In this document: positions 1 through 17,611 of the stretch, piece after piece
How positions within the stretch are numbered: the first letter of the stretch is position 1
Layout of the letters: every line of letters starts with the position of its first letter
NCBI GenBank assembly: GCA_030668465.1
Contig: DAOUTX010000001.1
Location: forward strand, 1 to 30,357
DNA from: Atribacterota bacterium
GTDB taxonomy: Bacteria; Atribacterota; Phoenicimicrobiia; Phoenicimicrobiales; Phoenicimicrobiaceae
DNA length: 30,357 nt
Reading direction: 5' to 3'
Notes under the pieces: generated by a model
Seen by the model: the letters and a program-made list of their open reading frames with translations, nothing else
Databases searched by the model: none
Told to the model about the DNA's origin: nothing
Position numbers and translations under genes: made by a program

Positions 1-387
1 ATCCAACGCAACTCCAAAACTTTTTAATCTCAACCAGGGAAGAAAATTAGAATGGTGCTCGAGAAGAGTCGTCACCACTTTATCTCCTGTTTTCCATTTC
101 AATCCACTGGCAACCGTGTTTATCGCTTCAGTCGTGTTCTTGGTGAATATGACCTCTTCTTCATCCGCGCCGATGAAATATGCAATTTTTCTGTGTGCAT
201 CCTTATATTTCTGCGATGCAACCTGAGATAATCGATGAACGCCTCGTCCCACGTTTGCATTATATTCTCTATAATATTTTGAAACTACATTTAGAACAGG
301 CTCTGGAGTTAAACTCGTAGAAGCACTATCCATATAGATTATGTCATTCAGAATTGGGAAATCTGTCTTTATCTCAGTAAAATTCAT
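1..387 (-). CDS. sufS: Cysteine desulfurase, SufS-like class V PLP aminotransferase; N-terminal 129 codons, continues off the left edge
   Basis: Not in the ORF track. Manual translation from ATG at 387 (GGAGG upstream): MNFTEIKTDFPILNDIIYMDSASTSLTPEPV...YNANVGRGVHRLS...EEVIFTKNTTEAIN...TTLLEHHSNFLPW. The YxDSA(S/A)T, N(V/I)xRGxH, FTxNTTE and EHHSN motifs are typical of the SufS/Csd group. Confidence 0.9.
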   Translation of the reverse strand, partial: MNFTEIKTDFPILNDIIYMDSASTSLTPEPVLNVVSKYYREYNANVGRGVHRLSQVASQKYKDAHRKIAYFIGADEEEVIFTKNTTEAINTVASGLKWKTGDKVVTTLLEHHSNFLPWLRLKSFGVALD

Positions 388-430
388 ATAGAGGTCCCTC
401 CAATCAGATATTTTTTGAATTCTTCTTTAG

Positions 431-1222
431 TCATAATGCCTCATCCATACTCCCAGACCTGTATCCTTCCAAATCCAATGTAATGTATTTGAAACCGACC
501 TTTTTTAATCTTCTTACTATTTCTTTTCTAAAATTAATAACCTTTTCTATTTCTTCTTTTTCTACTTCTATCCTTGCAACGTCTTTATGACACCTTGCTC
601 TTACCTGTCTTAATCCTAAAGATAGAATAAATGATTCTGCTTCCTCGATCCTTTTCAATTTTTCTGTGGTTATTTCTTCGCCATACAAAATTCTGGATGA
701 CAGGCAAGTCGTGGAAGGCATATCATAATTCGACAATCCTAAAAATTTTGCCATTGCTTTGATATCTGACTTTTTAACTCCTGCCTCTACTAAAGGATGG
801 ATGATATCTTCTTCATCAAATGCCTTTATGCCTGGCCTATGCTCATCAAAATCAGACAGATTAACGCCATCCGCGATATATTTTATTCTATTTTCATTTG
901 CTATTCTTTTCAAAACTATAGCTTCCTCTTTCTTGCAATAGTAACATCTATTCTCAGGGTTCTTAACGAACGCTTTATTGCCAAGTTCTGATGATTTTAT
1001 AATCATATGATGCACGCCAATCTCTTTTGCAATCTTTTTTGCGTTTTCCAATTCTCTCTTAGAAAAAGTATCTGAGGTTAAAGTAACTGTCAGTGCCCTT
1101 TCACCTAATACATCATATGCAACCTTTGCAATTAAAGAACTATCTACCCCTCCTGAAAATGCAATCATTAGACTTTCTTTCTCTTTTATAATCTCTTTTA
1201 AATGTTTAAGTTTTTCTTTCAT
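431..1222 (-). CDS. larE: ATP-dependent sulfur transferase LarE (PP-loop), three-cysteine type
   Basis: PP-loop AFSGGVDSS, NRCYYCK (C93/C96), HRPG, PSTTCLSSR (C173), VRAR, ARIEV and C-terminal TLDLEGYRSGSMDE. Confidence 0.92.
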   Translation of the reverse strand: MKEKLKHLKEIIKEKESLMIAFSGGVDSSLIAKVAYDVLGERALTVTLTSDTFSKRELENAKKIAKEIGVHHMIIKSSELGNKAFVKNPENRCYYCKKEEAIVLKRIANENRIKYIADGVNLSDFDEHRPGIKAFDEEDIIHPLVEAGVKKSDIKAMAKFLGLSNYDMPSTTCLSSRILYGEEITTEKLKRIEEAESFILSLGLRQVRARCHKDVARIEVEKEEIEKVINFRKEIVRRLKKVGFKYITLDLEGYRSGSMDEAL

Positions 1223-1275
1223 TTTTATATCCTTTTTCTATCACTCCACCACTCATTTCTACAATAACTTTATCT

Positions 1276-2175
1276 TTAAACATATTCCAGCATCGCCTCC
1301 AATGCCTTTTGAGCAGATTCATTGATTCCTTCTGGTAGTTCGATGGCGTAGCGTTCCTCCTTCAGCGAAAAGTATACATCGTTTAGAGCAGTTAGCTTCA
1401 TGTTTCGGCACATCTTAGCTGTGCCAGCAGCATAAAACTCCTTCCCCGGATTTTCCTTTTTTAATCGATAGATAAGCCCTTCTTCTGTTCCTATAAGAAA
1501 TATCTTTTTATCCGTTTTTTTCGCAAAGTTCAACATACCACTGGTCGATAACACCTCATCAGCAAGGTCAATAACTGATGGATTACACTCCGGATGAACA
1601 AGAAGAAGAGCATCAGGAAATCTTTCCTTGGCCAGACGAACCTCTTCCTTCCTTATTTTTTCATGAACATAGCAGTAACCGTTCCAGGGAATTATCTCTT
1701 TATCTACAAATCTCTGACAGTATGCGGCAAGGTTTTTATCCGGAGTAAAAATTATTTTCTTTTCCTTAATATTCCTTACCACATTTATTGCATTTGCCGA
1801 GGTACAGCAAATATCCGATTCAGCTTTTACATCCGCATTAGTATTTAAATAGGAAACCACTTTAGCATCAGTGTGTTTTTCTTTTAATTTCCTCAAGTCC
1901 TCAGCAGTTATCATATCTGCCATCGGACATCCCGCATCCTTCCTGGGTAGGAGAACCATCTTTTTGGGTGAAAGTATTTTTGCGGTCTCTGCCATAAAAC
2001 GGACTCCACAGAAGACTATTATTCCTGCATCTGTTTTTGCAGCTTCCCTTGCAAGTCCCAGGGAATCGCCAAGGGAATCTGCAATATCTTGAATCTCCGA
2101 CCTTTGGTAATTATGAACTAAAACAATAGCATTCTTTTCTTTTTTCAGTTTAGTAATTTCTTCTACTATATTCAT
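1276..2175 (-). CDS. nadA: Quinolinate synthase A ([4Fe-4S])
   Basis: VHNYQR, GDSLGLA, FCGVRFMAETAKIL, AGCPMA, GYCYVHE, HPEC, STSGM, GTEEG and MCRNMK, with the three cluster cysteines present. Confidence 0.97.
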   Translation of the reverse strand: MNIVEEITKLKKEKNAIVLVHNYQRSEIQDIADSLGDSLGLAREAAKTDAGIIVFCGVRFMAETAKILSPKKMVLLPRKDAGCPMADMITAEDLRKLKEKHTDAKVVSYLNTNADVKAESDICCTSANAINVVRNIKEKKIIFTPDKNLAAYCQRFVDKEIIPWNGYCYVHEKIRKEEVRLAKERFPDALLLVHPECNPSVIDLADEVLSTSGMLNFAKKTDKKIFLIGTEEGLIYRLKKENPGKEFYAAGTAKMCRNMKLTALNDVYFSLKEERYAIELPEGINESAQKALEAMLEYV

Positions 2176-2447
2176 TTATTTTTTTCTCCTTGAAGGATTA
2201 AATTATTACTTAGGAGAAGTATTATTTTATATATATAACTAGGAAATTTTCTCTGGTCTTACCTATTAATTTATTCTTTTGTCAGGCATCTTTTACCTCC
2301 TTCGCACAATAATTTATAAAATTCCTAGCATAAAAGAAACCCCGTACTAATTTTCCCAAGTAATAAAAACTACCTTAGCTCAAGTTCGGTAATTGTTTAA
2401 ACTACCAACACCGCTAAAGTTATTCTGAAATATAGATTTATGCAGCC

Positions 2448-2897
2448 CTATTTTGTAGTTGGTAATCCTTCTGATTTCCATTTAATAATCCCACCCAACA
2501 TATTATAGACTTCCCTAAAATCAAGCTCTTTCATTATATTTAAGGCATTTTCACTACGACGTCCGGATCTGCAATAAATAAGATATGTTTTGTTCTTATC
2601 CAATTTGTCAAGGTCATTCCTAAAAGTGTCAGAATAGTAATCTAAATTGACAGCATTTTCCATATACTCGCCTAAAAATTCTTCAGGAGTACGCACATCA
2701 AGAATTGTAAAATTTGGATTATCCTTGTTTTCTTTTATTAAGATATACGCTCCTTCCGGAGTGATATTTTTAATTATCTGGATTTGTGTTTCCGACTTTG
2801 TAGTGTTAGTTTCGGTTTGAATGCATGCACTCGTCAACAAAACCCCAATAATCAGAGCTCCCAAGAACAGCGATATCATTAAATTTTTTGGGTTCAT
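2448..2897 (-). CDS. Single-domain rhodanese-like protein, probable lipoprotein
   Basis: Hydrophobic N-terminus ending LTSAC (lipobox-like); ILDVRTPEEF; active-site loop YCRSGRRS; YNMLGGIIKW. Confidence 0.9.
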   Translation of the reverse strand: MNPKNLMISLFLGALIIGVLLTSACIQTETNTTKSETQIQIIKNITPEGAYILIKENKDNPNFTILDVRTPEEFLGEYMENAVNLDYYSDTFRNDLDKLDKNKTYLIYCRSGRRSENALNIMKELDFREVYNMLGGIIKWKSEGLPTTK

Positions 2898-2970
2898 TTT
2901 TACTCTAATTTATTATCTCCTTTCTCGATTTAACTTTGAATTAAATACACACAGACCTTTTCCTCTTAAT

Positions 2971-3498
2971 TTAATCCTGTAAATTGGGTGTTATATTAGG
3001 TATTTGGAACACTTCTGTTTCAACATATAAGTTAATTCTTGTATCTGGTACCTGAGGATCATTTGAATAAATATGGATATGTTTTTCATCTTTTCCCACA
3101 TAATCAGTAGTATCATAGGATACTTTAAGTTCAGCTGATTCTCCCGGTTTAATGCGAGTAGTAGAAATTGAAGCCTCTATACAAGGACAAGATTCTTTTA
3201 AGCTGTCAATAATTAAATCTCCTTCTCCCCCATTTTTTACAATAAAAATATGGGTGGGCTTTTCGCCTTGGATCACCTTTCCAAAATCCCATTCTTGTTC
3301 CGAAACCAGAATCCTTGGTTGAGGCCCAAAATTATTTTGGATAGCATTAGAAGAATTATTTTGGATAGCATTAGAAGAATTATTTTGGATAGTATTAGAA
3401 GAATTATTTTGGGTAGTACTAAATACCAAAACACCCCCCAATATAATTACCGCTATTATAAGAATGAATATTATTATATTTTTAGACATTGTTTTCAC
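2971..3498 (-). CDS. Membrane-anchored DUF1573-like Ig-fold protein with an Asn/Ser repeat linker
   Basis: N-terminal TM segment, (QNNSSNAI)n linker, then WDFGKV...FIVKNGGEGDLIIDSLKESCPC...IKPGESAELKVSYD...IYSNDP, the pattern of the DUF1573/ASH-type domain. Confidence 0.75.
   Translation of the reverse strand: MKTMSKNIIIFILIIAVIILGGVLVFSTTQNNSSNTIQNNSSNAIQNNSSNAIQNNFGPQPRILVSEQEWDFGKVIQGEKPTHIFIVKNGGEGDLIIDSLKESCPCIEASISTTRIKPGESAELKVSYDTTDYVGKDEKHIHIYSNDPQVPDTRINLYVETEVFQIPNITPNLQD
3330..3412. repeat. In-frame 24-bp tandem repeat, about 3.5 copies
   Basis: Unit AATTATTTTGGATAG(C/T)ATTAGAAG at 3330, 3354 and 3378, plus a partial copy at 3402; encodes QNNSSN(T/A)I. Confidence 0.95.
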
Positions 3499-3534
3499 CT
3501 CCTTTTATCTTTATTTTTTAAAAATAAATCTATG

Positions 3535-4230
3535 TCAATAATATAAATCAGATTTTTCTTTAGGGACAACCTTTCCATCCTGAAGATGGATTATCCTTTG
3601 AGTGGCCTGGGCTAATTCCAAATTATGAGTAGCAATAACTATAGCCAGGCCTTTTTCACTCAAATTCTTAAAAAGTTCTAAAATTTGCTCTCCAACTTTT
3701 ATCTCTAATTTACCGGTTGGTTCATCGGCAACAAGTATCTTGGGATCATTAACCAAAGCTCGTGCAATACCTGTGCGTTGTTTGTCTCCCCCGGATAAAT
3801 GTTTTACCTGAATTCCTTCTTTATCTTCAAGATTCACTTCTTTTAGCAAATCTAATATATTTTTCGCGTTAATGTTTTTCTTTGCAAAAATTAAAGGTAA
3901 TTCTACGTTTTCTCTAACAGTTAAGGTTGGAATTAAATAAAACCGTTGGAAGATAAAACCAATATTCTCCCTTCTGATCTTTATTAAATCAATCTCCTCA
4001 AGAGAAGCAACATCGTTATCGCCAATCTTCAAACTCCCTGCTGTAACCTTATCAAGGCAGCCAATCAGGTTCATTAAAGTGGTTTTTCCTGAGCCAGAAG
4101 GACCAACAATTGAAATAATTTCACTTCCTTTAATTTTTAAATCTACTCCATCAAGAGCTTTAACAATTTCTGAACCTCGATGATAATGTTTTTTTAAATT
4201 CTTTGCTTCTAAAACTATCTTATCCTGCAT
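3535..4230 (-). CDS. ABC ATPase, LolD/MacB (FtsE-like) family, second copy with an altered D-loop
   Basis: Walker A GPSGSGKT, signature LSGGDKQR, Walker B ILVADE followed by PTGKLE (usually PTGNLD), H-loop ATHN. Confidence 0.92.
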   Translation of the reverse strand: MQDKIVLEAKNLKKHYHRGSEIVKALDGVDLKIKGSEIISIVGPSGSGKTTLMNLIGCLDKVTAGSLKIGDNDVASLEEIDLIKIRRENIGFIFQRFYLIPTLTVRENVELPLIFAKKNINAKNILDLLKEVNLEDKEGIQVKHLSGGDKQRTGIARALVNDPKILVADEPTGKLEIKVGEQILELFKNLSEKGLAIVIATHNLELAQATQRIIHLQDGKVVPKEKSDLYY

Positions 4231-4231
4231 T

Positions 4232-4921
4232 TTATTTTACCAACCTTTCATCCTTTTCCATTTTCCCATCATTTAAATGAATCACTCTATCCGCTGAATA
4301 ACCTAATCTAATATTATGAGTAGCAACTATAATAGTTAAACCCTCTTCCCTATTGAGATTTCGAAAAAGACTAAAAAGTTCTTGTGCATTCTTGGTATCT
4401 AAGTTACCTGTTGGCTCATCCGCAAGAAGAATCTCAGGATTATTAGCTAAAGCTCTGGCCACCGCTACTCTCTGTAATTCTCCTCCGCTTAATTCATTAG
4501 GAAAATGAGTTAATCTATGATCTAAACCAACTCTTTTCAAGAGATCTCTTGGTCTATTATTATTTTTATAATTTCGGGCAAAAATCAGAGGTAGTTGAAC
4601 ATTTTCCAATGCATTTAAAAATGAAATTAAGAAAAAATCCTCAAATACAAACCCAATTTTTTCTATTCGGATACGGCTAAGTTTTTCTTCATTAAATTTT
4701 GTAGGGTTGCTTCCTAAAATATCTAACTTGCCTGAAGTAGGTCTATCTAAACATCCGATCAAATTTAAAAAGGTAGTTTTTCCTGCTCCTGATGCTCCCA
4801 TTATAGTGACGAATTCACCTTTTTTTATCTCAATATCTATTTCCTTTAAGGCTATTATTTTTTGGGATGCAGAGAAGTATACCTTCTTTAGCTTATTGGC
4901 TTTTACAATATACTCTCTCAC
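4232..4921 (-). CDS. ABC ATPase, LolD/MacB family, canonical
   Basis: GASGAGKT, LSGGELQR, LLADEPTGNLD and ATHN. The GTG start overlaps the permease TAG at 4921. Confidence 0.94.
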   Translation of the reverse strand: MREYIVKANKLKKVYFSASQKIIALKEIDIEIKKGEFVTIMGASGAGKTTFLNLIGCLDRPTSGKLDILGSNPTKFNEEKLSRIRIEKIGFVFEDFFLISFLNALENVQLPLIFARNYKNNNRPRDLLKRVGLDHRLTHFPNELSGGELQRVAVARALANNPEILLADEPTGNLDTKNAQELFSLFRNLNREEGLTIIVATHNIRLGYSADRVIHLNDGKMEKDERLVK

Positions 4922-6105
4922 TATTCTCCACTCCTTATTACTTCAATAGGTCTCATTGAAGCTGCCTTAAATGCCGGATACAGTCCTGAAATTATACCTA
5001 TAATTATTACTCCCAGGAAAGAATAAACTAAAAGATCGGGAGTAATTAAGAGTAATCTACCACCTGGGGCATAAGGCATTACTTTTCTTACTAAAAGTTC
5101 GGTCAAATTTCCACCAAAAATCGCAATAACTGAGCCAAAGATACCACCTAAAGTACAAATAATAAGTGTTTCCATCCAGATGAGTTTAAATATATCTGAC
5201 CTTGAGGCTCCTATTGCCTTCATAATACCTATTTCTTGTGTTCGCTCGAAGACGCTCATTAATATGGTATTAATAACCCCAATAATAGCTACAAATATTG
5301 CGATAAAGGCAACAGACATAATCAATATTTTAGCTGAATTTACCAGATTTAAGATTGTCCCTTTAACCTGGCTCATGCTTATTACTTGAATGCTGGCAAT
5401 TGGATATAGCCTCTCTTCAAATTCTGAAATCTTCTCAATTTGTTTTAGCTTGATACCGATACCTGTCAGTTTGCCTTCTATATCAAAGACTCTTTGAGTT
5501 GTTTTCAGAGGTAAAAATACTGCTCCATCTTCCTGAGTAGCTGTTCTTTCAAAGATGCCCACAATAATTAAAGTAATATCTTTATCCGGTATGGAAATTT
5601 TATCTCCAACTGATTTTTGTTCTGATTCTGCTGCTTCGTATCCTAAAATTGCTTCATTAGCATTTTCGGCTGAGAACCATCCTCCAGATTTAAACTTAAC
5701 ATTTGGCTTAAGTTCAATGTAGCTTTTTTCGATTCCTAAATAATTAATAAAACCACCTTTACCGCCTTGTTTTTCCGGATCATAAGCTAATTGAGCAAGG
5801 AGTGGTGTAATCTTATCAATATCAGGATCACTGGTTATTTGATTATAGATATCCTCATCCATAAATCTAAGGCCTGCTTCTCCACTAAGTATCATAGTTG
5901 CTGCCTCGTAAGGGCAACCTTTGGCTGTTACAATAACTTGATATCCCATTTTATCGACATCAGAGGTTAATGCTTCTTGATACCCGGCATTAAAACCTAA
6001 AAGAGCGACTAAAACTGCTACTGCTACTGCTACTCCACCAATGGTTAAAAAAGAGCGGGATTTTCTCCGTTTCAAATTCTTATAAGCTAAAATAAAAAAT
6101 TTCAT
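4921..6105 (-). CDS. MacB/FtsX-family ABC permease (4 TM with a large periplasmic domain)
   Basis: RRKSRSFLTIGGVAVAVA TM1, periplasmic domain, NTILMSVFERTQEIGIMKAIGA, C-terminal GLYPAFKAASMRPIEVIR. Confidence 0.93.
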   Translation of the reverse strand: MKFFILAYKNLKRRKSRSFLTIGGVAVAVAVLVALLGFNAGYQEALTSDVDKMGYQVIVTAKGCPYEAATMILSGEAGLRFMDEDIYNQITSDPDIDKITPLLAQLAYDPEKQGGKGGFINYLGIEKSYIELKPNVKFKSGGWFSAENANEAILGYEAAESEQKSVGDKISIPDKDITLIIVGIFERTATQEDGAVFLPLKTTQRVFDIEGKLTGIGIKLKQIEKISEFEERLYPIASIQVISMSQVKGTILNLVNSAKILIMSVAFIAIFVAIIGVINTILMSVFERTQEIGIMKAIGASRSDIFKLIWMETLIICTLGGIFGSVIAIFGGNLTELLVRKVMPYAPGGRLLLITPDLLVYSFLGVIIIGIISGLYPAFKAASMRPIEVIRSGE

Positions 6106-6587: not shown

Positions 6588-6619
6588 ATTACTACTTATT
6601 CTATCAAATAAGTAGTAAT
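6588..6619. promoter_or_regulatory. Palindromic operator, copy A (ATTACTACT-N14-AGTAGTAAT)
   Basis: Perfect 13-bp arms ATTACTACTTATT / AATAAGTAGTAAT around CTATCA; same outer arms and spacing as the site at 11787-11818. Confidence 0.75.
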
Positions 6620-11786: not shown

Positions 11787-11818
11787 ATTACTACTATTAC
11801 TATTACTTTAGTAGTGAT
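11787..11818. promoter_or_regulatory. Palindromic operator, copy B (ATTACTACT-N14-AGTAGTGAT), over the rrf2 -10/start region
   Basis: Inverted arms TAATTACTACTA (11785-11796) and TAGTAGTGATTA (11809-11820) with one mismatch; matches the site at 6588. Confidence 0.75.
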
Positions 11819-13290: not shown

Positions 13291-13962
13291 TTACGTCTTA
13301 TTTATCTTTCCGTTATCCATCAGGTAAATACAATTAGTAGTCTCTTTTAAAAATTTTTTATCATGAGAAATAATTATGTAGGATAAATAGGGATGACTAT
13401 TTAATATTTGAACTATCTTTTCAATAGTTCCCTCATCAAGCCAGATTGTAGGTTCATCAAGTAATAAAATCTCCGGCTGCATTGCCCATACCGTAGCTAG
13501 AGAAACTAATCTTTTTTCTCCATAAGAAAGATTATAGGTAATTCTATCTTCAAAGCCAGCTAATCCGAGAGTCTCCAAAGTTTCTTTTAAGATTTTTTTA
13601 GTTTCCTGATGATTTTTTCTTAAGTTTAGAGGACCAAAGGCAATATCTTCAGCCACAGTAGGGCTGAATAATTGATCATCCGGATCCTGAAAAAGAAGGC
13701 CAATTCTTTCTCTGACTTCCACAAAATTATTCTCTACTTTTCGTTCTTTTCCAAAAATTTCTATTTTCCCTCCCGAAGGATTTAAAAGACCCATAATAAG
13801 ATGGAATAGAGTAGTCTTCCCACTTCCATTGAGCCCAACTAGGCCAATCCTCTCTCCTTTGAAAAAATTAAAACTAAACTTTTTAAATATATAATCCCGG
13901 GAGGGGTAGGCAAAGGAAAGGTCAACAAATTTGATTACGGATTCCTTTTCTTTTTCTTTCAT
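13291..13962 (-). CDS. cbiO: ECF transporter ATPase (CbiO/NikO)
   Basis: Start moved to ATG 13962 (ATGA overlap with the cbiQ stop). GLNGSGKT, LLFQDPDDQLFSPTVAEDIAFGP, LSYGEKR, LLDEPT, SHD. Confidence 0.93.
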   Translation of the reverse strand: MKEKEKESVIKFVDLSFAYPSRDYIFKKFSFNFFKGERIGLVGLNGSGKTTLFHLIMGLLNPSGGKIEIFGKERKVENNFVEVRERIGLLFQDPDDQLFSPTVAEDIAFGPLNLRKNHQETKKILKETLETLGLAGFEDRITYNLSYGEKRLVSLATVWAMQPEILLLDEPTIWLDEGTIEKIVQILNSHPYLSYIIISHDKKFLKETTNCIYLMDNGKINKT

Positions 13963-14711
13963 GACAGTAACACCAATCCCATAACACAACTTATCATCAC
14001 AATTCCCGCTGCAAAATCAGCTTTTTTGGAAACAAAATGATTTAAAGTCCAAAATTTGCCCTTAAACCCTCGGCACAGCATAGCATTATAAACTCTCTTG
14101 GAGCGGTCATAACTTCTAACTAACATCATCCCCACTAAATAGGCATAAGTCTTGTAAGTGTGGAGATTGGTCTGCGGTTTAAATCCCCTTATTTTCAAAG
14201 CATTATTTAATCTGATATATTCAGAATGAATGGTATGGATATAACGATAAGTAAAGAAAAATAACTGAACCAATTTATCAGGAAGATGCAAATGCCGCAG
14301 GGCATGGACCAGATTAAATATTGAAGAAGTAGAAAGGAGTGCAATCCCAACTAAAATAATAGAGTTAGATTTTATAGTAATTAAAAGGGCATATTTGATG
14401 CCTTCTTGAGAAATACCTAACGATCCTAAAGTATAAACTTTTTCACCCTGAAAGGTAAATGGGAGCATCAACCATAATAAAAAGATAAAACTATTCACCA
14501 CTAAAAGACGGGAAATCACTTCTTTGGTCCTTAAACGGGCAACAATCACTGCTGCTACAGCAAGGAATAAAGCACCCCATAATGAGGTATATTTATCGCT
14601 GACAGCAACAATTACTGAAAACAATAAAGTCACAACAATCTTTACCCGCGGATCGAGCTTATGAAAAAAAGAATCCCCTTTCGAAAATTTTTCTTTAATC
14701 AAATTAATCAC
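13959..14711 (-). CDS. cbiQ: ECF transporter T component (CbiQ/NikQ)
   Basis: HKLDPRVK, LFFFTYRYI, ALKIRGF, LVRSYDRSKRVYNAMLCRGF (two conserved xRx motifs). Confidence 0.95.
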   Translation of the reverse strand: MINLIKEKFSKGDSFFHKLDPRVKIVVTLLFSVIVAVSDKYTSLWGALFLAVAAVIVARLRTKEVISRLLVVNSFIFLLWLMLPFTFQGEKVYTLGSLGISQEGIKYALLITIKSNSIILVGIALLSTSSIFNLVHALRHLHLPDKLVQLFFFTYRYIHTIHSEYIRLNNALKIRGFKPQTNLHTYKTYAYLVGMMLVRSYDRSKRVYNAMLCRGFKGKFWTLNHFVSKKADFAAGIVMISCVMGLVLLS

Positions 14712-14730
14712 CTAAAAATAAAATTTTAAA

Positions 14731-15312
14731 TTACCTTTTACGGCTTAAAAAATAAGCAATAATTCCAAAAATGCCAATTATATAACCTATGCCCCCAATT
14801 ATCTCGGCGGGAGAAATCTTATCCTCCCGAGATTTCTTAATCTCTCTCATAATCGGCTTTAACTTTTCATCCAGAGTATCTTCAATTATTGATTGAATTT
14901 CTTTCAAGTCAACCAAAGAAGTTTCGGAAGAAACAATAGATACGGGTTCTTCAGGTTCTTCTTTAATCAACCCGACAGCACCCCTTAATTCATCTGCCGA
15001 AATACTATATTCTGCCCGATGCCCCATGCTGGCAGTAAGAACTATTTTTAAATCTCCATCTTCCGAAGGAACTTCTAAAGAAAATTTTCCTTCCTTATCA
15101 GTTAAACCTTCCAATAATTTATTCCCCTGGTTATCGAATACTTCAATCTTAGAATCTATACATTTCTTACCATCGTTAAAATAACTTTCAGTATATATTT
15201 TTTCCCCTTCTACATAAGCAAAGACATTTACTTTGTGGGCAAAGACCGAGACATCCATCATTATAATGGTTAGAAAAGTAAATATCAAAATTAAATACAG
15301 TTTATTTTTCAT
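14731..15312 (-). CDS. NikL/CbiL-like accessory component of the Ni/Co ECF importer
   Basis: Signal peptide then AHKVNVFAYVEG...SYFNDG, GHRAEY, C-terminal TM IIGGIGYIIGIFG; lies between cbiM and cbiQ. Confidence 0.7.
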   Translation of the reverse strand: MKNKLYLILIFTFLTIIMMDVSVFAHKVNVFAYVEGEKIYTESYFNDGKKCIDSKIEVFDNQGNKLLEGLTDKEGKFSLEVPSEDGDLKIVLTASMGHRAEYSISADELRGAVGLIKEEPEEPVSIVSSETSLVDLKEIQSIIEDTLDEKLKPIMREIKKSREDKISPAEIIGGIGYIIGIFGIIAYFLSRKR

Positions 15313-15347
15313 CTTATCTTCCCAATATGATTCTATTTTATTTGATC

Positions 15348-15380
15348 AATCTGTGTAATCTATATTAAATCCGTGTAATC
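15348..15380. repeat. 13-bp direct repeat pair, 20-bp period
   Basis: AATCTGTGTAATC (15348) and AATCCGTGTAATC (15368) at the cbiM stop. Confidence 0.6.
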
Positions 15381-15978
15381 ATATTTCTAATATTTCCGGT
15401 CTAACTTTCCTCAAGAATCCTATACAAAACACAGTTAATGCTCCTTCTAAAATCATCACCGGCAGATGGGCAATTAGCGCCAATTTAGCTACCTGTATAA
15501 AAGGTTCTCCGGTAAAGACCAGAGCAACTGCCACCATTGTTCCGCTTAATAATACCGCCAAAAATCCACAAACAAAGGCCAGGGTTAGGGCAATAAAATT
15601 ATTCTCACTTCTAACTCCCCGATTAAATAGATAGAAACAGATAATTGCCGGAAAAGCCATATTTAAAGTATTTACTCCCAAGGTGGTGATGCCTCCAATT
15701 TGAAATAGTACTCCTTGGAAGGCAAGGGCAACTAATATCGCCGGAAAGGCGGACCAACCTAATAATAGCCCTATAATCCCATTTAGAATTAAGTGTACAC
15801 TTGATGGACCTAAAGGAACATGAATTAAAGAAGCCACGAAAAAAACAGAAGATAAAATGGCTACTTTAGGCACTTCTTTATGTTCCATCTTTTTTAAGCT
15901 ATATCCTACTGCTGTAGCAGTTAATCCTGCACCCGTAACTAATACAGGCGCAGATAGTATCCCTTCTGAAATATGCAT
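15379..15978 (-). CDS. cbiM: ECF S component CbiM/NikM
   Basis: N-terminal MHISEG with the metal-binding His2, FFVASLIHVP, SVHLILNG, GGITTLGVN, AHLPVMILEG. Confidence 0.95.
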   Translation of the reverse strand: MHISEGILSAPVLVTGAGLTATAVGYSLKKMEHKEVPKVAILSSVFFVASLIHVPLGPSSVHLILNGIIGLLLGWSAFPAILVALAFQGVLFQIGGITTLGVNTLNMAFPAIICFYLFNRGVRSENNFIALTLAFVCGFLAVLLSGTMVAVALVFTGEPFIQVAKLALIAHLPVMILEGALTVFCIGFLRKVRPEILEI

Positions 15979-15999
15979 AAAGTATTTCCCTTCTACTAT

Positions 16000-16785
16000 T
16001 TATTCCATATTATGAGTTTTGACCCAGAGCACTGCCCCTATTTCTATCGATTTCTCTTCTCCATCATGCTTTATTTTTTCTTCATCTTCATTAAGAGCAG
16101 CAAATCCCCACCAACCTGCTTTGGGCATGGCATAGGTAAATACACCATTCTGGTCAGCTTTGATCACCTGGGTAATCATAGGGTCAGCAGGCCATTTAAC
16201 CTTACCATCTTGATTGTAATACTCTACTTCTACTTCTGCATAGGGCACTGCTTCCCCCTTAACTTTTACAATCCCTTGAAAAACATTTCCTGTCCAGATA
16301 CCATACGGCCGAGTCAAGGGAATAATCTCAGTCTTCAGTCCTACCTCTTCATCCCAGCCCACTTCCAACCCGAGGGTATTTACAACCACCTTAGTATAGT
16401 GAATGATAAAACAATCCTCTGCAGGTTCCCAATAGGGTTGAGGTTCGACATAAAAGATTTGGTCACCCGGACGTTTTATCTGATAATTAGCCTCCCAGGT
16501 AGTGCAATTGTTAATCTTTTTCACTTGAAGTATGTTCAGTAAATCAATTTTCTTACCCTGAATCAATACTCCAAATTGCACTGGTTTATCCATATCCATA
16601 TAATCCCCTTCCATGGGATGAATAAATTGTACTTTTAAAGTAATGCTTTTATTATCATCCTGGGTGATCATATCATCAGAGGGGATTATCATCCCGAAAT
16701 GAGCATTGGCTACAATCATGCTCCCAAATAAAAATACTGCCACTAAACTAAAAATTAAAAACGCTTTTAATTTTAAATCCTTCAC
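16000..16785 (-). CDS. DUF4198 periplasmic protein (NikK/CbiK-like)
   Basis: GTG start with AGGAGG. Signal peptide then [48 protein letters not shown]. Confidence 0.85.
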
Positions 16786-16823
16786 GCCTTTCCTCCTGGA
16801 TAATTTAATTCGCCAATTAATTT

Positions 16824-17072
16824 TAGTTAACTAGTTAGTTGGTTACATGGTTAATTAGTTAATTAGTAAGTTTTGCAATGGGTAATATGTTATAAGTAAC
16901 CAGTTTTAAACTCAAAACATAAACTTGTACTAATATTTCTATTCATTAAATTTAATACTATCCGCTTTTAAAATGTTTTTAGGTAAATCCCATTAATATG
17001 GTAAAAACAGGTTTTGCCCAAAGGTTTCAATTTTTAACCAGATAACCAAGTAACTAACTAACCGATTAACTA
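16824..17072. repeat. Two oppositely oriented 8-mer periodic tracts (imperfect inverted pair)
   Basis: T(A/G)GTTAAT-like x6 at 16824-16871 and its reverse complement (xxTAAC(C/T)x-like) x5 at 17033-17072. Confidence 0.6.
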
Positions 17073-17113
17073 TTCACTATATACTATTTTCATTTTCGTG
17101 CTACGCATAAGGT

Positions 17114-17138
17114 AAAAAAAATTGAGGCTTTCAACCTC
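17114..17138 (-). terminator. Weak intrinsic terminator candidate after nikR
   Basis: Minus strand GAGGTTGAAAGCCTC stem-loop followed by AATTTTTTTT. Confidence 0.4.
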
Positions 17139-17194
17139 TCTATTGTAATTTAGATCTGAAAACTGTTAACCGAAAACTGAAAACTATTCTCTTT

Positions 17195-17611
17195 TTATAC
17201 TAACTCTTTCCCGGTAGTAGCTATAGATAAAGATCCGTATTTTACCCCTTTAGTCGCTCTTAATTTATCAGCCAGTTCTCTCACCTCTGTCGGCTTCCCT
17301 CTTACCACTATTATCTCCAAACAATTATCGTGGTCTAAGTGAATGTGCTGACTGGAGATAATTAATGTGTGAAAATCATGCTGGATATCGGTTAAGATAT
17401 TTACTAATTCCCTTTTATGGTGGTCAAAGACCAAGGTAATTGCTCCCGCAACTTCCTTTCCTTCTATCCATTCTCTCTTAACTAAATTCTCCCTAATTAA
17501 ATCTCTAATTGCCTCCGAGCGGTTAGGATATTTTTTCTCTTTGATGAGTATATCAAATTTTTCTAAAAGCTCTTTTTCTAATGATACTCCAAAACGGACT
17601 ATTTCAGACAT
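17195..17611 (-). CDS. nikR: Nickel-responsive regulator NikR
   Basis: RHH domain VRFGVSL...NRSEAIRDLIR; Ni ligands IQHDF and QHIHLDHDNCLE. Confidence 0.97.
   Translation of the reverse strand: MSEIVRFGVSLEKELLEKFDILIKEKKYPNRSEAIRDLIRENLVKREWIEGKEVAGAITLVFDHHKRELVNILTDIQHDFHTLIISSQHIHLDHDNCLEIIVVRGKPTEVRELADKLRATKGVKYGSLSIATTGKELV

What the first reader, a model, noticed from the sequence alone, without database searches (positions are those of the whole stretch)
1..2175. nadA-larE-cysteine desulfurase grouping: a possible precursor-plus-sulfur module for the nickel-pincer cofactor
Seen: three co-oriented genes 43-53 bp apart; this LarE keeps CxxC (C93/C96) plus C173. Known: the nickel-pincer nucleotide (NPN) is made from nicotinic acid adenine dinucleotide by LarB, LarE and LarC; NadA feeds de novo NaAD synthesis; three-Cys LarEs are reported to hold [4Fe-4S] and to be recharged by a cysteine desulfurase rather than sacrificing their own Cys. 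Inference: the locus couples precursor supply, sulfur insertion and sulfur donor, and a NikR-controlled Ni importer lies 11-15 kb away. larA/B/C and nadB/C are absent from the window, so LarE might instead act on another substrate.
Basis: partly seen in the sequence, partly recalled or inferred. Interest (0 to 1): 0.68.

Follow-up and report, generated by a model that had tools for sequence, protein, structure and literature searches.

The report
Eroded sulfur-delivery operon with spare LarE
The three genes are real, but they are what is left of a seven-gene accessory operon in an uncultured Atribacterota bacterium that puts a cysteine desulfurase beside second copies of enzymes needing its sulfur or an iron-sulfur cluster, so it is a sulfur-delivery unit rather than a dedicated nickel-cofactor module.

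Summary
Observation confirmed. On the minus strand lie nadA (2175..1276), a three-Cys LarE (1222..431) and the first 129 codons of a SufS-type cysteine desulfurase (387..1, cut by the contig end), with 53- and 43-bp gaps.

Interpretation partly supported.
- The genome has larB, larC and three larA homologs, but these sit beside a different LarE (45% identical) on contig C11.
- nadB and nadC sit beside a different NadA (50% identical) on C198.
- So both window genes are second copies.

Near relatives carry nadA-mnmA-larE-thiI-like-sufS-fdhD-thiF as one tightly packed operon. The two short gaps in the window are the scars of clean deletions of mnmA and the thiI-like gene. A 99.5% identical metagenome contig shows the operon continuing as sufS-fdhD-(internally deleted thiF)-Rrf2-cysK.

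The operon was found in only about 6 of 19 genomes of the genus. Every member has a housekeeping counterpart elsewhere in the genome.

Across 86 LarE loci the commonest neighbours were NadA (17), ThiF (17), SufS (16) and FdhD (15). LarC (9) and LarB (5) came lower.

Best reading: LarE2 is an Fe-S-dependent, catalytic NPN sulfur insertase fed by the co-encoded SufS. Why NadA travels with it is unresolved. This is a new variant of known desulfurase-plus-client clustering, of moderate interest.

The parts
1276..2175 (-). nadA2: complete quinolinate synthase and the second NadA of the genome. The other copy (50% identical) lies beside nadB-nadC on contig C198.
   Evidence: NF006878 428 bits, cut-off 294. 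Best solved relative is Pyrococcus horikoshii NadA 1wzu, E 9e-87; C83, C168 and C256 align with its C83, C170 and C256. Paralog on C198.
1223..1275 (-). 53-bp spacer, the scar of a deleted mnmA. About 42 nt of the gene's 5' end and about 35 nt of its 3' end remain; the junction is near 1242-1252.
   Evidence: blastn of the window against L051, L139 and L049. The alignment jumps from L051 6954 to 7970, with an 11-nt overlap at the junction.
431..1222 (-). larE2: PP-loop sulfur insertase of the LarE family, CxxC...C (Fe-S) type, and the second LarE of the genome.
   Evidence: TIGR00268 318.7 bits, cut-off 150. PDB 5udq E 9e-46 and 8cnz E 7e-36. SGGVDS at 23-28; C93/C96/C173; S176/R208/R210. LarE1 on C11 is 45% identical.
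388..430 (-). 43-bp spacer, the scar of a deleted thiI-like PP-loop gene (332 aa in relatives); the junction is near 425-432.
   Evidence: The blastn alignment jumps from L051 8798 to 9739, with an 8-nt overlap. The gene is present in L049, L051, L059 and L139.
1..387 (-). 5' part (129 codons) of a SufS-type cysteine desulfurase, cut by the contig end.
   Evidence: PF00266 E 8e-37 and TIGR01979 partial. 87% identical to the full 395-aa protein of G012, which scores 479 bits against a cut-off of 475.1. The complete gene is on L141, which is 99.5% identical to the window.
2176..2447 (-). 272-bp intergenic region upstream of nadA2. It is conserved in near relatives and its function is unassigned.
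   Evidence: Alignment A2. No Rfam match even at E 1. No terminator-like site on the minus strand. No copy of the Rrf2 operator.
2448..2897 (-). Rhodanese-domain protein (149 aa), a variable upstream neighbour of the operon.
   Evidence: PF00581 E 1.5e-16. Present in L051, L053 and L142; absent in G012 and L139.

Best explanation
The three genes are the surviving front end of an accessory Atribacterota operon. Its full form is nadA-mnmA-larE-thiI-like-sufS-fdhD-thiF, with start and stop codons overlapping. It is a sulfur-delivery unit built around a cysteine desulfurase. One SufS-type enzyme is encoded together with enzymes that take its sulfur: three PP-loop thiolation enzymes carrying a CxxC motif, the sulfurtransferase FdhD and an E1-like ThiF/MoeB. 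NadA, which needs a [4Fe-4S] cluster, is encoded with them. The operon lies in a cysteine-synthesis and Rrf2 neighbourhood.

Every member is a second copy of a housekeeping gene found elsewhere in the genome. In the window's population mnmA and the thiI-like gene have been deleted and thiF has lost 498 bp internally, which leaves nadA2-larE2-sufS-fdhD.

Inferred mechanism:
1. LarE2 binds a [4Fe-4S] cluster through C93, C96 and C173.
2. It adenylates the carboxylates of P2CMN, which is made by LarB on contig C11.
3. It transfers a non-core sulfide that is replenished from cysteine by the adjacent SufS, either directly or through FdhD.
4. The product P2TMN goes to LarC and then to the three LarA homologs.

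NadA2 is a working quinolinate synthase. It travels with LarE either as another client of the desulfurase or to raise NaAD supply; this is not settled.

Shown here: gene identities, motifs, paralogy, deletions and recurrent neighbourhoods. Inferred: cluster binding, the sulfur route, the substrate and co-transcription.
For: Identities and motifs.

Full operon in near relatives (83-91% identical LarE2): G012, L051-L053, L059, and the Atribacteria genome contigs L139 and L140.

Deletion scars, and the continuation of the operon on L141 (99.5% identical).

Second-copy status of each member:
- larE1-larB-larC on C11.
- nadA1-nadB-nadC on C198.
- Rrf2-thiI-like-mnmA on C187, fdhD on C215 and thiF on C194.

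Accessory status: orthologs at 82% identity or more of at least one of NadA2, LarE2 or SufS were found in G000, G006, G012, G013, G014 and G015 only, out of 19 genomes of the genus.

LarE in such contexts is a true NPN enzyme. Five other genomes each have a single LarE, and it is the one linked to nadA, sufS, fdhD or thiF. LarC is present in 5 of 5 and LarB in 4 of 5, elsewhere in those genomes. One of the five, G045, carries a LarE of the LarE2 clade.

The P2CMN-phosphate ligands named in PMC9283937 (Ser180, Arg212, Arg214 of L. plantarum LarE) are kept as S176, R208 and R210.

The published mechanism, a [4Fe-4S] LarE recharged by a cysteine desulfurase, is in PMC9283937.

Neighbour counts in 86 LarE loci: NadA 17, ThiF 17, SufS 16, FdhD 15, LarC 9, MnmA 7, LarB 5.
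Against: - No expression or biochemical data. Co-transcription rests only on short gaps and the lack of a terminator-like site.
- A canonical larE1-larB-larC operon, whose LarE1 also has the three Cys, already covers NPN synthesis, so LarE2 may be redundant or have another substrate.
- No LarE of the LarE2 clade was seen next to larB or larC.
- SufS-type desulfurases usually need a dedicated acceptor such as SufE or SufU (established knowledge), and none is encoded in the operon.
- The 86 loci were chosen by likeness to LarE2 and by the RCYxC motif, and many are kin, so the neighbour counts are not an unbiased frequency.
- The operon is visibly decaying in this lineage, so some surviving genes may be on their way out too.
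Confidence: 0.6

Rival explanations
1. One reading: nadA-larE-sufS is a dedicated NPN module. NadA is there specifically to feed NaAD into LarB, and SufS specifically to recharge LarE.
For: nadA overlaps or directly precedes larE with no sulfur genes nearby in Brocadiaceae (L064, L068, L074, L076-L078) and in one deltaproteobacterial genome (L131). In Brocadia, nadD (the NaAD-forming enzyme) and larC lie in the same cluster. In Brocadia, Methanoregula and the deltaproteobacterium, that nadA is the only one in the genome. In the eroded window operon it is nadA2, larE2, sufS and fdhD that survive.
Against: In this lineage the ancestral operon also holds mnmA, a thiI-like gene, fdhD and thiF, none of which has an NPN role. 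larB and larC are elsewhere with another LarE, and nadB and nadC are elsewhere with another NadA. NPN is needed in cofactor amounts, so a dedicated quinolinate synthase is not an obvious need (inference).
Confidence: 0.2
2. LarE2 is an orphan LarE-like thiolation enzyme with a substrate other than P2CMN, for example a ThiF/ThiS-linked or RNA substrate. NPN synthesis is left to LarE1.
For: The LarE2 clade (14 rows, SH-aLRT 98) is found beside thiF, thiS-thiG-thiH, mnmA or thiI-like genes, and never beside larB or larC. The genome already has larE1-larB-larC. LarE also turns up in the Thi4 sulfur-relay clusters described in PMC13325395.
Against: G045 has a LarE2-clade protein as its only LarE and has LarB plus a partial LarC match (positions 1-227 of 375) elsewhere. 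LarE2 scores as high on the LarE equivalog model as LarE1 does (318.7 against 325.1 bits). It keeps the residues proposed to bind the P2CMN phosphate.
Confidence: 0.12
3. The adjacency has no functional meaning: three unrelated genes brought together by deletions in a decaying accessory island.
For: The direct adjacency arose by two deletions. thiF is also internally deleted. mnmA is a pseudogene in L053. NadA2 of G006 carries an in-frame TGA. The island was found in only some genomes of the genus.
Against: All three genes were already in one overlapping-gene operon before the deletions. LarE with SufS, FdhD and NadA recurs in distant archaea and bacteria. The three open reading frames are intact and 83-100% identical to many metagenome copies.
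Confidence: 0.08

Closest known systems
[4Fe-4S]-dependent LarE of Thermotoga maritima (PMC9283937) and of Methanococcus maripaludis (PDB 8cnz)
   Same: PP-loop SGGxDS motif, CxxC...C tri-Cys motif, and conserved residues for the P2CMN phosphate. The genome has LarB, LarC and LarA homologs. The published model has a cysteine desulfurase recharging the cluster with a non-core sulfide.
   Different: In T. maritima the desulfurase genes lie far from larE. Here a SufS-type desulfurase is encoded in the same operon. This LarE is a second paralog, separate from the larE-larB-larC operon. Its activity is untested.
Bacillus subtilis dedicated desulfurase-client gene pairs: NifS beside nadBCA, YrvO beside MnmA, NifZ beside ThiI (own knowledge; the E. 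coli iscS requirement for NAD, 4-thiouridine and thiamin is cited in the reference list of PMC9283937)
   Same: A cysteine desulfurase is encoded next to the enzymes it serves, including NadA, MnmA and ThiI.
   Different: B. subtilis uses one desulfurase per client, at separate loci. Here one SufS sits with all the clients plus LarE, FdhD and ThiF in a single operon, and the whole set duplicates housekeeping copies.
Sulfur-relay superclusters around prokaryotic Thi4 (PMC13325395)
   Same: Recurrent clustering of ThiF, ThiS, CysK, NifS, ThiI, MnmA, LarE, FdhD and HcyBio. Locus L055 shows NadA-DUF6775-Thi4 a few kb from thiF-larE-thiI-like.
   Different: That study is centred on Thi4, and NadA does not occur in the paper's main text. 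No Thi4 is present in the window operon.
Canonical lar operon (larA-larB-larC-larE of Lactiplantibacillus plantarum)
   Same: The same LarE family and presumably the same chemistry.
   Different: L. plantarum LarE is a single-Cys, sacrificial enzyme encoded with larB and larC. The window LarE is the Fe-S type and is encoded away from them.

Membership tests
[quoted passage not shown] | Score above the curated equivalog cut-off | tested here: met
   318.7 bits against a cut-off of 150
LarE (TIGR00268) | PP-loop SGGxDS ATP-binding motif | tested here: met
   SGGVDS at residues 23-28; invariant in alignment A1
LarE (TIGR00268) | Residues proposed to bind the P2CMN phosphate (L. plantarum Ser180, Arg212, Arg214; PMC9283937) | tested here: met
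   They align with S176, R208 and R210. R208 and R210 are invariant and S176 nearly invariant in A1.
LarE, [4Fe-4S] subtype | CxxC...C tri-Cys motif aligned with the cluster ligands of characterised enzymes | tested here: met
   C93, C96 and C173 align with the Cys of 8cnz and correspond to T. maritima C92, C95 and C172
LarE | LarB and LarC present in the same genome | tested here: met
   LarB 303.6 bits and LarC 487.7 bits on contig C11, but next to another LarE
LarE | ATP-dependent conversion of P2CMN to P2TMN; Fe-S cluster content | not testable with these tools
   Needs protein biochemistry
Quinolinate synthase NadA | Score above the equivalog cut-off, and three Cys cluster ligands | tested here: met
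   NF006878 428 bits against a cut-off of 294. C83, C168 and C256 align with C83, C170 and C256 of P. horikoshii NadA 1wzu. That these are the cluster ligands is from own knowledge.
SufS-type (group II) cysteine desulfurase | Full-length match to TIGR01979 with the PLP-binding Lys and catalytic Cys | tested here: inconclusive
   The window holds only residues 1-129 (128.8 bits against a cut-off of 475.1). The 87% identical G012 protein scores 479 bits. K213 and C354 are invariant in alignment A3, whose first row is the protein of L141, the contig 99.5% identical to the window.
Desulfurase-plus-client operon (B. subtilis NifS/NadA, YrvO/MnmA, NifZ/ThiI type) | Desulfurase gene adjacent to and co-oriented with client genes, conserved in relatives | tested here: met
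Desulfurase-plus-client operon | Direct sulfur transfer from this desulfurase to the clients | not testable with these tools
   Needs biochemistry

The most novel reading that the evidence does not exclude
The four genes that survive erosion here, nadA-larE-sufS-fdhD, are the same set found together in ANME-1 and, with an IscS/NifS-type desulfurase in place of SufS, in Methanoregulaceae. They could form a self-contained pathway independent of LarB and LarC. In it a NadA-made pyridine dicarboxylate (quinolinate or a derivative) would be adenylated and thiolated by the LarE paralog, with sulfur passed from SufS through FdhD. The product would be a thiocarboxylated pyridine, possibly a metal ligand. 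A milder version is that FdhD is the missing persulfide shuttle between a SufS-type desulfurase and Fe-S LarE.
Probability: 0.06. Interest if true: 0.85.

Novelty: new variant of a known kind. Interest (0 to 1): 0.5.

Why it matters
The catalytic, Fe-S-dependent mode of LarE was shown in vitro with a foreign desulfurase (E. coli IscS), and in T. maritima no desulfurase gene lies near larE. Loci like this one name natural candidate sulfur donors: a co-encoded SufS, and possibly FdhD. The work also shows that, among three-Cys LarEs, sulfur-relay genes and nadA are commoner neighbours than larB and larC. That gives directly testable protein pairs for NPN biosynthesis. It also raises a concrete question of why quinolinate synthase repeatedly travels with LarE. 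Finally, an accessory operon that duplicates a whole set of sulfur- and Fe-S-dependent enzymes, and is caught in the act of losing some of them, is a useful natural experiment on which members are non-redundant.

Tried and rejected
- Complex prediction, LarE2 (alignment A1) with SufS (alignment A3): no verdict, score 0.00. This is not evidence either way.
- Rfam search of the whole window at gathering thresholds, and of 1-3600 at E up to 1: nothing found. There is no NAD-type riboswitch before nadA2.
- Promoter scan: no more sites than in shuffled sequence.
- Idea that LarE2 stands in for NAD synthetase (same PP-loop superfamily): rejected. A true nadE (277 bits) lies on C77, and LarE2 scores only 30.9 bits on that model.
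- Idea that the Rrf2 operator found by an earlier agent also precedes nadA2: the ACTACT...AGTAGT palindrome occurs only at 6591-6616 and 11790-11815. It is not in 2176-2447 and not on L141. Read-through from the operator-controlled promoter at about 6600 cannot be excluded.
- NadA tree: the row L144 was a wrongly picked ORF (branch length 7.7) and should be ignored. The join of NadA2 with L055 has a long-branch warning.
- The remainder of sufS was not found on any other contig of this assembly.
- The last protein search (SufS) returned only sequences at least 88% identical, so it added no diversity to the alignment.
Full report
**What is in the window**

The window is the whole of contig C212 of a 1.30-Mb, 237-contig, 77%-complete genome bin. 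ORF listing and family scans show three co-oriented minus-strand genes.

- nadA, 2175..1276, 299 aa: NF006878 428 bits against a cut-off of 294.
- larE, 1222..431, 263 aa: TIGR00268 318.7 bits against a cut-off of 150.
- The first 129 codons of a SufS-type class-V aminotransferase, 387..1, cut by the contig end.

The gaps are 53 and 43 bp. Each has a ribosome-binding-site-like sequence before the next start, and neither holds a terminator-like site. A rhodanese gene (2897..2448) lies 272 bp upstream.

LarE carries SGGVDS at 23-28 and Cys93, Cys96, Cys173 and Cys211. In the alignments to solved structures, C93, C96 and C173 match the CxxC...C residues of the [4Fe-4S] LarE of M. maripaludis (8cnz). 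C173 sits one residue after the sacrificial Cys176 of L. plantarum LarE. PMC9283937 describes the same shift for T. maritima LarE. The residues that paper proposes to bind the P2CMN phosphate (Ser180, Arg212, Arg214) correspond to S176, R208 and R210, which are conserved.

NadA aligns end to end with P. horikoshii NadA (1wzu, E 9e-87), and the three Cys positions line up.

**The rest of the genome changes the picture**

- LarB and LarC exist, but on contig C11 in an overlapping operon larE1-larB-larC (2013-2840, 2840-3598, 3595-4785). LarE1 is only 45% identical to the window protein and also has the three Cys.
- Three LarA homologs are present.
- nadB and nadC are on C198, directly beside a second NadA that is 50% identical to the window protein.
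- A true nadE is on C77.
- tblastn finds housekeeping counterparts of the other operon members too: Rrf2-thiI-like-mnmA on C187, fdhD on C215 and thiF on C194.

So the window's NadA and LarE are both second copies.

**What the cluster looks like in relatives**

The closest genome (G012, LarE2 90% identical) has DUF1573-nadA-mnmA-larE-thiI-like-sufS-fdhD with overlapping stops and starts, then Rrf2-cysK. Metagenome contigs with 83-91% identical LarE2 show the same core, continuing into thiF, Rrf2, cysK, HcyBio, a NIL-ferredoxin and a hexapeptide transferase. Two Atribacteria genome contigs show the same seven-gene core ending at thiF, preceded by cysteine-synthesis genes and followed by an ArsP/YHS permease. 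One nearest species representative is labelled Aminicenantes in its record.

**The three-gene adjacency is a deletion product**

blastn of the window against L051, L139 and G012 shows the alignment jumping over about 1015 bp of mnmA (junction near window 1242-1252) and about 940 bp of the thiI-like gene (junction near 425-432). The junctions have 11- and 8-nt overlaps. The 53- and 43-bp 'spacers' are therefore deletion scars.

L141, a 10.5-kb metagenome contig 99.5% identical to the window over 2871 bp, continues past the window's left end. It reads sufS (395 aa)-fdhD-thiF-Rrf2-cysK-HcyBio-NIL/Fer4-hexapeptide-ArsP. Its thiF has an in-frame 498-bp internal deletion. L053 shows an intermediate state, with mnmA in fragments and the thiI-like gene gone.

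What survives in this population is nadA2-larE2-sufS-fdhD.

**Distribution**

Among 19 genomes of the genus, orthologs at 82% identity or more of at least one of NadA2, LarE2 or SufS were found only in G000, G006, G012, G013, G014 and G015. The housekeeping NadA1 was found in all 16 genomes of the genus that were searched, and LarE1-type proteins in most. Many of these bins are incomplete, so absence is not proven.

LarE2 and NadA2 both have the same nearest outgroup, the metagenome contig L055 (long-branch caveat for NadA). Neither nests within the housekeeping copy's clade. This points to acquisition rather than recent duplication (inference).

**Is a LarE in such a context a real NPN enzyme?**

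I took five other genomes whose LarE lies beside nadA, sufS, fdhD or thiF: Brocadia, Methanoregula, Methanoculleus, ANME-1 and an uncultured bacterium with a LarE2-clade protein. Each has exactly one LarE. LarC was found in five of five and LarB in four of five, elsewhere in the genome. So these context-linked LarEs are the organisms' only candidates for NPN synthesis. This argues that LarE2 keeps the LarE function.

**How general is the neighbourhood?**

A scan of species-representative genomes with a LarE2-based alignment gave 80 loci; with six metagenome loci this makes 86. Clustering all ORFs within 5 kb of LarE, without prior labels, gave these top real families (Pfam labels):

| Neighbour family | Loci |
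|---|---|
| NadA | 17 |
| ThiF/MoeB | 17 |
| SufS | 16 |
| FdhD | 15 |
| Small HTH protein | 13 |
| NcsA/TtuA-like PP-loop protein | 11 |
| Cys/Met PLP enzyme | 10 |
| LarC | 9 |
| MnmA | 7 |
| CysK | 7 |
| LarB | 5 |

On a LarE tree, NadA-linked rows fall in at least five separate clades: the window lineage, ANME-1, Methanomicrobiales, Brocadiaceae and a deltaproteobacterium. Parsimony needs 11 changes of state.

- In Brocadiaceae and the deltaproteobacterium, nadA directly precedes or overlaps larE with no sulfur genes nearby. In Brocadia, nadD and larC share the cluster.
- In Methanoregulaceae the layout is MoaE, ThiF and an IscS-like desulfurase divergent from HTH-larE-fdhD, followed by an NcsA-like gene and nadA.
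- The nadA next to larE is the only NadA in three of five genomes checked.

The sample is biased. The counts show recurrence, not frequency.

**Interpretation**

The best-supported reading is a desulfurase-centred sulfur-delivery operon whose LarE member is an Fe-S-dependent, catalytic LarE fed by the co-encoded SufS. This fits the published in vitro mechanism and supplies a genomic link that T. maritima lacks.

FdhD keeps its conserved SGCG-loop cysteine (Cys98) in the Atribacterota, ANME-1 and Syntrophoarchaeum copies, with the equivalent at Cys112 in Methanoregula. It always follows sufS or larE closely, so it may relay the persulfide; that is inference.

NadA's presence has two explanations that I cannot separate. 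It could be a [4Fe-4S] client of the desulfurase, as with NifS and NAD synthesis in B. subtilis (own knowledge) and the iscS requirement for NAD in E. coli (cited). Or it could be coupled to NaAD supply, as the Brocadia nadD-larC-nadA-larE cluster suggests.

The 'dedicated three-gene NPN module' is not.

**Regulation**

No Rfam family matches. The 272-bp region before nadA2 is conserved among near relatives but holds no copy of the Rrf2 operator, which occurs only at 6591-6616 and 11790-11815. All genes from 6527 down to position 1 run in the same direction, so read-through from the operator-controlled promoter is possible but untested.

**Novelty**

All the families are known. Desulfurase-client clustering and sulfur-relay superclusters that include LarE have been described (PMC13325395). 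A full-text search found no paper mentioning both LarE and quinolinate synthase.

New here:
- The single-operon arrangement with NadA and LarE.
- Its status as a complete second set of housekeeping functions.
- Its stepwise erosion down to nadA-larE-sufS-fdhD.
- The finding that, among the three-Cys LarEs sampled, these neighbours outnumber larB and larC.

Noticed in passing
window 13291-17611: NikR (17195-17611) followed by DUF4198, CbiM, a 193-aa ORF, CbiQ and an ABC ATPase, which looks like a nickel/cobalt ECF-type importer. In relatives L139 and L140, NikR is kept but a radical-SAM gene stands where the transporter genes are, so the closeness of the importer to larE2 is not conserved.
   Followed up: partly
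window 6591-6616 and 11790-11815: Two copies of an ACTACT-N14-AGTAGT palindrome (0.01 expected by chance), before the 140-aa/FtsX/ABC gene string and before Rrf2. This is the operator reported by an earlier agent. All genes from 6527 down to the sufS fragment are co-oriented with the first site.
   Followed up: partly
window 3330-3421 (inside the DUF1573 / OS_HP2-like gene 2971-3498): Three and a half tandem copies of a 24-nt unit, encoding a short peptide repeat near the N-terminus of the DUF1573 protein.
   Followed up: no
G000 contig C187 (about 3246-5745) and C81: Housekeeping sulfur loci. On C187: Rrf2-thiI-like-mnmA, with a class-V aminotransferase further along. On C81: a 410-aa class-V aminotransferase near a 326-aa PP-loop protein that is present in nearly all relatives.
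   Followed up: partly
L101:9995-11464 (Bipolaricaulota genome contig): A single 489-aa ORF covers both the LarE match and a LarB match, with larC downstream. This is an apparent LarE-LarB fusion.
   Followed up: no
L066, L070, L073, L079, L088, L107, L111, L121, L126, L137, L138, L062, L055: A conserved small protein of about 115 aa with a weak HTH_3 match lies immediately upstream of larE in ANME-1, Methanomicrobiales and Methanocellales loci. It is a candidate dedicated regulator.
   Followed up: partly
G006:C395:1423-2313: The NadA2 ortholog of this same-genus genome carries one in-frame TGA. This could be a pseudogene, a sequencing error or a recoded codon.
   Followed up: no
L055:929-3396: NadA-DUF6775-Thi4 lie together a few kb from thiF-larE-thiI-like. 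This matches the Thi4 sulfur-relay clusters of PMC13325395, and Thi4 uses NAD as a substrate.
   Followed up: no
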